Source: Escherichia coli
Lineage (GTDB): Bacteria > Pseudomonadota > Gammaproteobacteria > Enterobacterales > Enterobacteriaceae
DNA length: 64,000 bases
Assembly: GCF_003790525.1 (NCBI RefSeq)
Contig: NZ_CP033635.1
Strand: one strand, 5' to 3'
This document shows, one piece after another, positions 27,001 through 30,000 of the stretch (positions are counted from its first letter, which is position 1; each line of letters opens with the position of its first letter). Made by a program: the position numbers.

Positions 27001-30000
27001 ACCCGGCGTCAATCCGCTGTTTGAAGCGATGATTGAAGCGGGCGTGCAGGCGGGCTACCCGCGCACGGACGATCTCAACGGCTATCAGCAAGAAGGTTTT
27101 GGCCCGATGGATCGCACCGTCACGCCGCATGGCCGTCGCGCCAGCACCGCGCGTGGCTATCTCGATCAGGCCAAATCGCGCTCTAACCTGACCATTCGTA
27201 CTCACGCCATGACCGATCACATCATTTTTGACGGCAAACGCGCGGTGGGCGTCGAGTGGCTGGAAGGCGACAGCACCATTCCGACCCGCGCGGCGGCGAA
27301 TAAAGAAGTGCTGTTATGTGCAGGCGCGATTGCTTCACCGCAGATCCTGCAACGCTCCGGCGTCGGCAACGCTGGACTGCTGGCGGAGTTTGATATTCCG
27401 CTGGTGCATGAATTACCTGGCGTCGGCGAAAATCTTCAGGATCACCTGGAGATGTATCTGCAATATGAGTGCAAAGAACCGGTTTCCCTCTACCCTGCCC
27501 TGCAGTGGTGGAATCAGCCGAAAATCGGTGCGGAGTGGCTGTTTGGCGGCACCGGCATTGGTGCCAGCAACCACTTTGAAGCAGGCGGATTTATTCGCAG
27601 CCGTGAGGAATTTGCGTGGCCGAATATTCAGTACCATTTCCTGCCAGTGGCGATTAACTATAACGGCTCGAACGCAGTGAAAGAGCACGGCTTCCAGTGC
27701 CACGTCGGATCGATGCGCTCGCCAAGCCGTGGGCATGTGCGGATTAAATCCCGCGCCCCGCACCAGCATCCAGCGATTCTGTTTAACTACATGTCGCACG
27801 AGCAGGACTGGCAGGAGTTCCGCGACGCAATTCGCATCACCCGGGAGATCATGCATCAACCGGCGCTGGATCAGTATCGTGGCCGCGAAATCAGCCCCGG
27901 TGTCGAATGCCAGACGGATGAGCAGCTCGATGAGTTTGTGCGTAATCACGCCGAAACCGCCTTCCACCCATGCGGTACGTGCAAAATGGGGTACGACGAG
28001 ATGTCCGTTGTGGATGGCGAAGGCCGCGTGCACGGGCTGGAAGGATTACGCGTAGTCGATGCGTCAATTATGCCGCAGATTATCACCGGCAATCTGAACG
28101 CCACGACGATTATGATTGGCGAGAAAATGGCGGATATGATTCGCGGGAAGGATGCGTTGCCGAGGAGCACGGCGGGATATTATGTGGCAAATGGGATGCC
28201 GGTGAGAGCGAAAAAAATGAGTCGTGATGTGAACTGACTCAGGAACCTATCAGATTGAGAGTTACCGTTCTACTATGAGGACCGAATCCTTATATAAAAC
28301 ACTGAGGTAACTCTCATGCTTCATATCCAGTATTCATGATGCTGGCTTTTTGCTGATATTTAACCCGAACATTCCTGATACAGACTATTAATTCATTTAT
28401 CTGCGGCAGATTTTATTTTCTGGATATATTATGAGTGAACAAATCAAACAGGATATCGATCTGATTGAGATTTTATTTTATCTGAAGAAAAAGGTAGATG
28501 AATACCAACAAAACTCTGGGCAGTAATAAACAGCATTCTGATAGAGAGTGCCTGTATAAAGCTGAAGTGACAATGACCGGGAAGGGAACCCGTTTTCAGG
28601 AATGGATGCCTGTCTTTTTCAATTTAAATATCCTGGCATTAGTAATGCCAGGATATTTACAGAAGAGCAGCATAACCATGACGGAACGGGGTTAAGTCAG
28701 GTTGTCCTAAACGCTATTTTCAACCTCGTATGCCTTCTTCAGGTTTATGTCCAGACTTCATATCTCTCTCAACAATCCTCAATAATCAGATACACCGCTT
28801 TCACCGGGCCATGAACTCCGACGACTTTGATAAGCTCAATATCCGCCGTTGAACTGGGGCCGCTAATGATGTTAATGCAGGAAGGCATTCGTTCACCGGC
28901 CTGCGCTTTCTGATGCAATTTTTCTGCGAGTTGCGCTACACGCGGCAGGATAGTGCTTTTACGCAGGATAAAAAGAGAAGATTCCGGGAGCAGGCTCAAT
29001 GAACGCCCGCGCCCGGCGGCGGAAAAAAGAACCACGCCTCCCGATTCGGTTAAACCATATTCAGCATATACGACGCCCACTTTAGCCTGCTCTGCTTGTG
29101 ATATGTTCTCAATACCTTTCGCCGGATCCCAAACAACGGCATTGCATTCCTGCTGCAAACGTTCGCTAATCCCCAATTCCTCCAGCCTCGTGTCACCGCT
29201 AATCACGATCGACTGATCTCCCAGCTCTTTACACAGACGTATTGCAGCTTCTGCGGCCTGCGCCTCGCTGGTCAGTTCACAGCGCGTCAACATAACATCG
29301 CTGGCAAACTGGATAAACGCGTCACAGCGCTGCTGTTGGTTAAGTTCGGTAAGCCGCTCGTTAGCATAGTTGTTAAGCGGCGCATCTTCTGCTTGCGGTT
29401 CAAGTCGCTGCGGGCGACCCAGTGCCTGAGCAACGTTATTCAAAAATTCGCTCCGATTATCCATTCTTTTTCTCCTGCGCCTGATGTTTCTTAAACCAAC
29501 TACGGAAACTCTCTCCGTCAGCTTCAGGAAGATCGCGTGCTTCCATCCAGTCGCTAATCGCGCCAAATTTGAGTGGTGTTTTGCCGCCATTGATAAACCA
29601 GCTTGCCGCATGAGCGCCGGCCATCATCCCGACTTTCCACAATCCTGGATGACTATTGGCATAAGCGAACATTTTTATCGCCCGTTGCTCTGCTTTTGCG
29701 GTGATCCCTTTTTCAGCCATCACCCGACGATGACGCAAAATCAGTTTTGACAGCGGAATACGCACCGGACACACGCTGTCACAAGCGGTGCATAAAGAGC
29801 AGGCGTAGGGTAAATCTTTAAAATCTTTATAGCCGCCAAGTAGCGGAGAAATCACCGCACCAATTGGCCCTGGATAAATAGAGCCATATCCATGACCGCC
29901 AATATGGCGATATGCCGGACAAGTATTCATACAAGCCCCGCAGCGAATACAGCGCAGCACATCCCGAAATTCAGAGGCCAGCACCTCAGAACGCCCGTTA

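What the first reader, a model, noticed from the sequence alone, without database searches (positions are those of the whole stretch)
28238..28768. Gene-poor 530-bp gap between betA and ykgG where a ykgH-type gene would be expected
My recollection of the K-12 order places a roughly 220-aa membrane protein gene (ykgH) between betA and ykgG. Here the gap holds no ORF of 100 aa or more on either strand. There is only a 31-codon frame (28431-28526, MSEQIKQDIDLIEILFYLKKKVDEYQQNSGQ) that looks like the N-terminus of a longer protein ending prematurely, which suggests deletion or decay of the gene.
Basis: partly seen in the sequence, partly recalled or inferred. Interest (0 to 1): 0.3.

Follow-up and report, generated by a model that had tools for sequence, protein, structure and literature searches.

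The report
In-frame deletion remnant of ykgH
The gap between betA and ykgG holds the stump of the membrane-protein gene ykgH, left by one clean in-frame deletion that about 1.4% of sequenced E. coli share, so this is ordinary loss of a dispensable gene.

Summary
Window 28238-28768 lies between the betA stop and the ykgG stop, has no ORF of 100 aa or more, and contains the 31-codon ORF at 28431-28526.

Alignment to other E. coli shows this ORF is ykgH with its middle removed in frame. Codons 1-21 are joined at 28493|28494 to the last 10 codons and the native stop. That is 573 bp less than K-12 (222 aa) and 405 bp less than a 166-aa allele whose flanks are nearly identical to the window. Both transmembrane helices and the periplasmic domain are gone, so this is a null allele. 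It is not a frameshift or a premature stop.

The exact junction occurs in 78 of 5,426 complete E. coli genomes, including SMS-3-5. It sits on one identical 1.3-kb haplotype, which indicates a single event. About 90% of genomes keep full-length ykgH. The promoter region, the 3'UTR (a putative Hfq-bound sRNA from RIL-seq) and the terminator palindrome are all retained.

YkgH itself is an AT-rich, H-NS-bound protein with a miniature polysaccharide co-polymerase fold and no known function. RefSeq already flags the stump as a pseudogene fragment. Interest is low.

The parts
28238..28430 (+). betA-ykgH intergenic region (193 bp), retained intact. It holds an 11-bp perfect inverted repeat (28256-28266 / 28306-28316) and a terminator-like hairpin with a T-run (28327-28345). 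It also holds the sequence matching the published H-NS-associated ykgH promoter motif (28403-28430, GCGGCA-16-TATATT).
   Evidence: Alignment to K-12 and to the 166-aa allele. Repeats. Terminator scan. The promoter motif GCGACA-16-TATATT from PMC3946193 was located. This is a motif match only; no transcription start was tested.
28431..28526 (+). ykgH deletion remnant: a 31-codon ORF made of YkgH residues 1-21 (MSEQIKQDIDLIEILFYLKKK), residues 213-222 (VDEYQQNSGQ) and the native stop.
   Evidence: No Pfam or NCBIfam hit. Maximum 19-residue hydropathy is 0.17, so no transmembrane segment is left.
28493..28494 (+). Deletion junction (GAAGAAAAAG|GTAGATGAAT). In the parent the two breakpoints end in the imperfect A-rich direct repeats AAGAAAAAG and AAAAAAATG (7 of 9 matching, 1 nt of exact microhomology). 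These encode the lysines that flank TM1 and TM2.
   Evidence: The junction 50-mer is present in 78 of 5,426 genomes.
28527..28660 (+). Retained ykgH 3'UTR, the locus of the putative Hfq-associated 3'UTR-derived sRNA reported by RIL-seq. The published northern probes map to 28570-28608. Strain e1-39 carries an IS1 here, with target duplication at 28591-28599.
   Evidence: PMC5145812, PMC8175672, probe mapping, IS1 alignment, and a fold z-score of -4.5. The end coordinate is approximate.
28625..28659 (.). 35-bp perfect palindrome (17-nt arms, 1-nt centre) between the convergent ykgH and ykgG genes; presumed bidirectional terminator.
   Evidence: The function is inferred from its position and structure and was not tested. 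The consensus terminator scan did not call it, because no separate T-run follows.
28498..28695 (+). 65-codon ORF that PGAP annotates as 'hypothetical protein' WP_012311773.1 in SMS-3-5 and relatives; probably not a gene.
   Evidence: The ORF is also open in K-12, where it overlaps ykgH. It runs through the palindrome, and all differences between alleles are non-synonymous.
28769..29464 (-). ykgG (LutC/YkgG family), the intact right-hand neighbour that bounds the gap.

Best explanation
The gap holds a null allele of ykgH made by a single in-frame internal deletion. In most E. coli, ykgH encodes a 222-aa inner-membrane protein. It has a short cytoplasmic N-terminus, TM1, a periplasmic domain of about 140 aa, TM2 and a 10-15 aa cytoplasmic tail, and its predicted fold is that of a miniature polysaccharide co-polymerase. 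In the window's lineage, DNA between two A-rich imperfect repeats (AAGAAAAAG … AAAAAAATG) was lost. These repeats lie at the lysine codons just before TM1 and just after TM2. The likely mechanism is replication slippage or another RecA-independent illegitimate recombination; this step is inferred. The immediate parent was most likely the 166-aa allele, which had already lost 168 bp (56 codons) in frame. The decay path would then be 222 to 166 to 31 codons, with 405 bp lost in the last step. What remains is a 31-codon ORF with no membrane or periplasmic part, so YkgH function is lost. The event happened once and now marks the SMS-3-5-like strains and a few related haplotype groups. The upstream region, the native stop, the 3'UTR and the terminator palindrome were left untouched. 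ykgH is AT-rich, H-NS-bound, poorly expressed, confined to a small Enterobacterales family, and commonly used as a neutral integration site. The loss is therefore best read as neutral gene decay.
For: Shown directly:
- The three-way alignment gives a clean 573-bp gap against K-12 and a 405-bp gap against the 166-aa allele. Both are multiples of 3, and start and stop codons are retained.
- tblastn matches both YkgH ends inside the 96-bp ORF.
- The junction 50-mer is found in 78 of 5,426 complete genomes, each as one contiguous piece. The 166-aa junction is found in 89. K-12 ykgH is at least 80% covered in 4,892.
- Two other deletion-bearing haplotypes differ from the window at 331 and 405 sites over 22 kb, but at 0 sites in 27757-29068. 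This indicates a single origin.
- Flank identity to the 166-aa allele is 100% left and 99.6% right. To the closest sampled 222-aa allele it is 100% and 95.3%.
- Distant full-length relatives of 211-229 aa contain the segment missing from the 166-aa allele, so the 222-aa form is ancestral.
- Hydropathy peaks at residues 20-45 and 184-214 are both removed.
- The model has pLDDT 84.5, and the top PDB fold matches are Wzc, KpsE and WzzE.
- The IS1 in e1-39 lies about 100 bp downstream of the junction and has its own 9-bp target duplication, so it is a later event.
- PGAP already marks the stump as an incomplete pseudogene.

From the literature: the ykgH promoter region is H-NS associated (PMC3946193) and the locus is transcriptionally quiet (PMC8497626).
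Against: Nothing contradicts the deletion itself. Four points remain open.
- The slippage mechanism is inferred from a weak repeat with only 1 nt of exact microhomology.
- The parent allele (166 aa or 222 aa) is inferred from flank similarity in a region that recombines, and only one close 222-aa allele was compared.
- 'Neutral' is an inference. Both nested deletions are in frame (about 1 in 9 by chance) and spare the promoter region and 3'UTR. That is also compatible with selection to keep something expressed.
- No expression or phenotype data exist for this allele.
Confidence: 0.92

Rival explanations
1. The deletion is not neutral. It turns ykgH into a minimal transcription unit that still delivers the 3'UTR-derived, Hfq-binding sRNA. 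Staying in frame lets ribosomes read to the native stop and so protects the 3'UTR from Rho-dependent polarity.
For: RIL-seq found the ykgH 3'UTR acting like an sRNA, with a shared target motif (PMC5145812; PMC8175672). The probe-matched sequence, the 3'UTR and the hairpin are 100% retained. Both nested deletions (168 and 405 bp) are in frame. The 3'UTR folds better than shuffled controls, z = -4.5.
Against: Northern blots with two probes failed to detect the sRNA in K-12. Two in-frame events have a chance probability of about 0.11. Frameshifted or truncated ykgH variants and IS insertions also occur in nature. One deletion-bearing strain has an IS1 inserted inside the putative sRNA. The locus is H-NS silenced.
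Confidence: 0.07
2. The 31-aa fusion peptide (MSEQIKQDIDLIEILFYLKKKVDEYQQNSGQ) is itself a functional small protein.
For: The ORF keeps the native start context and stop codon and is identical in the deletion-bearing genomes sampled.
Against: It has no family hit and no hydrophobic segment. Its identity across strains reflects recent common descent, since the whole 1.3 kb is identical, not constraint. No clear Shine-Dalgarno sequence lies upstream (sequence). PGAP treats it as a pseudogene fragment.
Confidence: 0.02
3. The deletion was a single 573-bp event from a full-length 222-aa allele, not a second step from the 166-aa allele.
For: The 573-bp interval fully contains the 168-bp one, so the remnant itself cannot tell the two apart. 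The left flank of a 222-aa allele (L005) is also 100% identical to the window.
Against: The right flank is 99.6% identical to the 166-aa allele but only 95.3% to the closest sampled 222-aa allele. In the 801-bp survey, the 62 or so non-deletion records at 99% identity or more were not inspected individually. The one sampled (H2) carries the 166-aa allele.
Confidence: 0.2
4. The deletion was caused by an insertion sequence (IS-mediated adjacent deletion).
For: IS1 copies occur at this locus in some strains (e1-39; MB50 within ykgH).
Against: There is no IS end or scar at the junction in the window. In e1-39 the IS1 lies at 28591-28599, about 100 bp from the junction, flanked by an intact 9-bp duplication. 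That marks a simple later insertion.
Confidence: 0.02
5. Assembly or sequencing artefact.
For: None.
Against: The same junction is present in 78 independently assembled complete genomes from many laboratories and hosts.
Confidence: 0.005

Closest known systems
ykgH (b0310) of E. coli K-12, protein YkgH, 222 aa
   Same: Same chromosomal slot between betA and ykgG. Same upstream region, start codon, first 21 codons (one substitution, R2S), last 10 codons, stop codon, 3'UTR and terminator palindrome.
   Different: 191 internal codons are missing, including both transmembrane helices and the whole periplasmic domain, so it cannot be a functional YkgH.
166-aa ykgH allele (e.g. E2348/69, MS6198, ECONIH1, 31B22CPO057)
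   Same: Nearly identical flanks (100% and 99.6%). It is also an in-frame internal deletion of ykgH and is similarly rare, at 89 of 5,426 genomes.
   Different: The 166-aa allele lacks only 56 codons (the Cys-pair segment after TM1) and keeps both TM helices. The window allele lacks a further 135 codons.
Polysaccharide co-polymerases (Wzz / Wzc / KpsE; Pfam Wzz PF02706 and GNVR PF13807). This describes the lost protein, not the remnant.
   Same: The two-TM N-in/C-in topology (topology inferred from the lysine placement). The N-terminal EIDLxELL motif next to TM1. Relatives that sources name 'GNVR domain-containing'. A predicted fold whose best PDB matches are Wzc, KpsE and WzzE.
   Different: YkgH is much smaller (222 aa against 325-720 aa). 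Its Pfam scores fall below the gathering cut-offs. It has no kinase domain, is not in a polysaccharide gene cluster, and has no known function.
3'UTR-derived Hfq-dependent sRNAs (e.g. MalH, CpxQ type)
   Same: The retained ykgH 3'UTR was recovered on Hfq in RIL-seq and scored as an sRNA candidate.
   Different: It has never been validated. Northern blots were negative in K-12, and Rfam has no family that matches here.

Membership tests
ykgH gene (remnant of) | Located between betA and ykgG, on the same strand as betA | tested here: met
ykgH gene (remnant of) | Sequence homology to YkgH at the N-terminal and C-terminal ends, with the native start and stop | tested here: met
   Alignment. tblastn 1-22 (E 3.6e-7) and 201-222 (E 0.001). 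Translation.
Intact YkgH protein | About 220 aa with two transmembrane helices and a periplasmic domain | tested here: not met
   Only 31 aa remain and the maximum hydropathy is 0.17. Both TM peaks (residues 20-45 and 184-214 of K-12 YkgH) are deleted.
   The deletion is 573 or 405 bp, both multiples of 3, and the ORF ends at the native TAA.
IS-mediated deletion | An IS end or scar abutting the junction | tested here: not met
   The junction is GAAGAAAAAG|GTAGATG with no foreign sequence. The IS1 in e1-39 is a separate insertion with its own target duplication.
Polysaccharide co-polymerase (PCP) family; applies to parent YkgH | Pfam Wzz (PF02706) and/or GNVR (PF13807) at or above the gathering score | tested here: inconclusive
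   For YkgH, Wzz scores 18.5 bits against a cut-off of 25.5, and GNVR has E 0.56. Among 11 family members, Wzz matches 4 (best E 9e-4) and GNVR matches 2 (best E 5e-8). A PDB Wzz chain matches at E 0.0023.
Polysaccharide co-polymerase (PCP) family; applies to parent YkgH | PCP fold: two TM helices bracketing an alpha/beta base and a long helical periplasmic hairpin | tested here: met
   The AlphaFold model has pLDDT 84.5. Foldseek top hits are Wzc, KpsE and WzzE with probability 0.9-1.0 and query-normalised TM-score of about 0.5.
Polysaccharide co-polymerase (PCP) family; applies to parent YkgH | Genetic linkage to, or function with, a polysaccharide polymerase or export system | tested here: not met
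   The neighbours are betIBA and ykgEFG (lactate utilisation). No wzx, wzy or kps genes lie nearby.
3'UTR-derived Hfq-dependent sRNA | The sequence that RIL-seq recovered on Hfq is present | tested here: met
   Both published probes match the window exactly at 28570-28608.
3'UTR-derived Hfq-dependent sRNA | A stable, discrete transcript that regulates targets | not testable with these tools
   The literature reports negative northern blots in K-12. No data exist for this allele.

The most novel reading that the evidence does not exclude
The in-frame character of both nested ykgH deletions, together with the untouched promoter region, stop codon, 3'UTR and terminator, may reflect selection. The selected feature would be a short translated leader that still feeds the Hfq-bound ykgH 3'UTR sRNA. 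On this reading a decaying protein gene is being converted into a dedicated sRNA gene.
Probability: 0.06. Interest if true: 0.5.

Novelty: already known. Interest (0 to 1): 0.1.

Why it matters
It matters little. The finding is a lineage-specific loss of a non-essential, H-NS-silenced accessory membrane protein gene, and RefSeq already marks the stump as a pseudogene fragment. It has three practical uses. The exact junction (28469-28518) is a clean presence/absence marker for the SMS-3-5-like group of E. coli. Annotation could be improved by labelling the stump as a ykgH remnant and dropping the 65-aa 'hypothetical protein' that is called across the terminator palindrome. The natural deletion also offers a ready-made test strain for whether the proposed ykgH 3'UTR sRNA exists independently of the coding sequence. 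As a by-product, YkgH is shown to have a miniature polysaccharide co-polymerase fold, which gives a starting point for studying this y-gene.

Tried and rejected
- Rfam scan of 28100-28900 at E up to 10 gave only sub-threshold chance hits to eukaryotic miRNA and snoRNA models, so no known RNA family lies in the gap.
- The consensus promoter and terminator scan found nothing above the shuffle expectation except the hairpin at 28327-28345.
- One search was wasted: my first 50-mer meant to span the 166-aa junction (L003:2040-2089) was misplaced by about 85 bp, and its result says nothing about that allele. It was repeated correctly.
- Pfam and NCBIfam on the 31-aa remnant gave no hits.
- I searched for ykgH elsewhere in the window with tblastn and with blastn of the deleted segment, and found nothing.
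- I considered an IS1-mediated deletion because the best BLAST hit carries an IS1. I rejected it because that IS1 is a separate insertion with its own 9-bp duplication.
- I considered that the short form is ancestral and K-12 ykgH an insertion. I rejected this because both gene ends are retained in frame and distant relatives are full length.
- I considered the 65-aa ORF as a real gene. I rejected it because it spans the palindrome and all its substitutions are non-synonymous.

Full report
**Observation.** The window carries betI-betB-betA on the plus strand, with betA ending at 28237, and ykgG-ykgF-ykgE on the minus strand, with ykgG ending at 28769. The spacer 28238-28768 is 531 bp and 38% GC, against 50% for the whole window. 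No ORF touching it reaches 100 aa; the longest are 70 and 65 aa.

**What it is.** I aligned the gap to a K-12-like locus (L001) and to the closest non-identical relative (L003, a 166-aa allele). The whole spacer is collinear except for one clean gap.
- The window lacks 573 bp relative to K-12 and 405 bp relative to the 166-aa allele.
- Both numbers are multiples of three.
- The junction is at 28493|28494 (GAAGAAAAAG|GTAGATG).
- The 31-codon ORF is therefore YkgH residues 1-21 fused to residues 213-222, ending at the native stop codon.
- tblastn finds both ends of YkgH in the ORF and nothing else in the 64 kb. The deleted DNA is also absent from the rest of the window.

The gene has not decayed by frameshift or nonsense mutation and has not moved. 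Its middle has been excised in frame.

**Mechanism of the deletion (inferred).** In the parental sequence the left breakpoint ends in AAGAAAAAG and the right breakpoint in AAAAAAATG. This is a 7-of-9 A-rich imperfect direct repeat with a single base of exact microhomology. The repeats encode the lysine clusters that flank TM1 (…LKKK|IR…) and TM2 (…VKKM|VDEY…). This pattern fits slipped-strand or other illegitimate recombination. No insertion-sequence end is present at the junction. The top BLAST hit (strain e1-39) has the same junction plus an IS1, but that IS1 sits about 100 bp downstream at 28591-28599 and is bracketed by its own 9-bp duplication CGTTTTCAG. It is therefore a later, independent insertion.

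**Population context.**
- A 50-mer centred on the junction cannot seed a megablast hit unless the junction is contiguous. It is present in 78 of 5,426 complete E. coli genomes, including SMS-3-5.
- The junction of the 166-aa allele is present in 89 genomes, including E2348/69, MS6198 and ECONIH1.
- K-12 ykgH is at least 80% covered in 4,892 genomes, so full length is the norm.
- Window 18000-40000 is 100% identical to about 23 genomes, including SMS-3-5.
- Two other deletion-bearing haplotype groups differ from the window at 331 and 405 positions over these 22 kb, yet show no difference anywhere in 27757-29068.

The deletion thus sits on one shared 1.3-kb haplotype within otherwise diverged surroundings. 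This indicates a single event, later spread by descent and homologous recombination.

**Parent allele.** The remnant's flanks are 100% (left) and 99.6% (right) identical to the 166-aa allele. They are 100% and 95.3% identical to the nearest sampled 222-aa allele, and 93.8% and 98.2% to K-12. Distant full-length relatives contain the 56-residue, Cys-pair-bearing segment that the 166-aa allele lacks, so the 222-aa form is ancestral. The most parsimonious path is 222 to 166 to 31 codons. A direct 573-bp event cannot be excluded, and I give it about 0.2.

**What was lost.** YkgH has two hydropathy peaks, at about residues 20-45 and 184-214, and both are removed.
- A word-indexed search of 5.8 billion proteins found only Escherichia sequences, many of them truncated variants.
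- An exhaustive HMMER search found a handful of relatives at 21-30% identity and 211-229 aa. They come from Citrobacter, Providencia and small E. coli plasmids. Some sources name them 'GNVR domain-containing' or 'tyrosine kinase G-rich domain' proteins.
- Pfam gives only sub-threshold Wzz and GNVR matches for YkgH itself. GNVR reaches E 5e-8 in relatives, and a PDB Wzz chain matches the N-terminus at E 0.002.
- An AlphaFold model built on the family alignment has mean pLDDT 84.5. Its best PDB fold matches are Wzc, KpsE and WzzE.

YkgH therefore has a miniature polysaccharide co-polymerase fold, but it is not linked to any polysaccharide locus and has no known function. The literature treats the locus as dispensable. 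It is a favoured neutral integration site (several hits), it is H-NS associated (PMC3946193), and it is transcriptionally quiet (PMC8497626). At 37% GC it looks like old horizontally acquired DNA. This supports reading the deletion as neutral decay.

**What remains.**
- The 193-bp betA-ykgH intergenic region is intact, including the sequence matching the published promoter motif (28403-28430, GCGGCA-16-TATATT in the window).
- The ykgH 3'UTR is intact. RIL-seq studies proposed it as a 3'UTR-derived, Hfq-bound sRNA (PMC5145812; PMC8175672). The two published northern probes match 28570-28608 exactly. Those northerns were negative in K-12, and Rfam has no matching family.
- A 35-bp perfect palindrome (28625-28659) lies between the convergent genes and probably acts as a bidirectional terminator. 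This role is inferred.

**Rival readings.** The only reading with any novelty is that the deletions stay in frame and spare the 3'UTR because the sRNA or a translated leader is selected. Against it:
- Two in-frame events have a chance probability of about 1 in 9.
- Truncated variants and IS-disrupted alleles also exist.
- One deletion strain has an IS1 inside the putative sRNA.

I give this reading about 0.06-0.07. A functional 31-aa peptide (about 0.02), an IS-mediated deletion (about 0.02) and an assembly artefact (below 0.01) are not supported.

**Comparison with what is known, and novelty.** RefSeq/PGAP already annotates the first 22 codons as an 'incomplete' hypothetical pseudogene in SMS-3-5 and its relatives. 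It often also calls a 65-aa 'hypothetical protein' (WP_012311773.1 = window 28498-28695). I judge that call spurious: the ORF runs through the palindrome, is open in K-12 as well, and differs between alleles only by non-synonymous changes. The finding is a correctly spotted but ordinary lineage-specific gene deletion. Interest is about 0.1.

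Noticed in passing
window 28211-28237: The 3' end of betA carries an A7 run, and BetA ends …[10 protein letters not shown] at 28237. The K-12-like genome has A6 there, which shifts the frame, so its annotated betA ends 18 nt earlier. This homopolymer-length polymorphism changes the BetA C-terminus by six residues.
   Followed up: partly
window ~28323-28325: Phylogroup B2 strains (CFT073, ATCC 11775) and O157 strains match the 801-bp query only from query position 224-226 onward. This looks like the right-hand edge of the UpaB/GI-4 island that the literature places between betA and ykgH (PMC4844996). The betA-ykgH spacer would then be a recurrent insertion site, and the window has the empty site.
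   Followed up: partly
window 28498-28695: PGAP annotates a 65-aa 'hypothetical protein' (WP_012311773.1) here in SMS-3-5 and its relatives. The ORF spans the 35-bp terminator palindrome, is open in K-12 too, and differs between alleles only by non-synonymous changes. It is probably an over-call.
   Followed up: yes
L002 (E. coli e1-39) 2000-2776; equivalent to window 28591-28599: An IS1 is inserted in the retained ykgH 3'UTR of an otherwise identical strain, with the 9-bp target duplication CGTTTTCAG. Strains CM2 and EC17CM2 also show extra DNA of about 0.78 kb and 1.3 kb somewhere in the 22-kb region. I did not locate it.
   Followed up: partly
L001:1833-2501 (K-12 ykgH); the family in alignment A3: YkgH belongs to a small Enterobacterales family of two-TM proteins of about 220 aa (Escherichia, Citrobacter, Providencia, small E. 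coli plasmids). The predicted fold is a miniature polysaccharide co-polymerase, with a conserved periplasmic Cys pair and an invariant Trp (W129).
   Followed up: partly
window 28256-28316: An 11-bp perfect inverted repeat (TGAGAGTTACC / GGTAACTCTCA) with a 39-nt spacer lies immediately downstream of the betA stop. A separate hairpin with a T-run follows at 28327-28345. These may be betA terminator or regulatory structures.
   Followed up: no
window 28625-28659 vs L001: The terminator palindrome is perfect in the window. In K-12 it carries two changes near the apex (CATTGGTAATACC against CATTAGTAATGCC), giving one G·U pair and one C·A mismatch.
   Followed up: no
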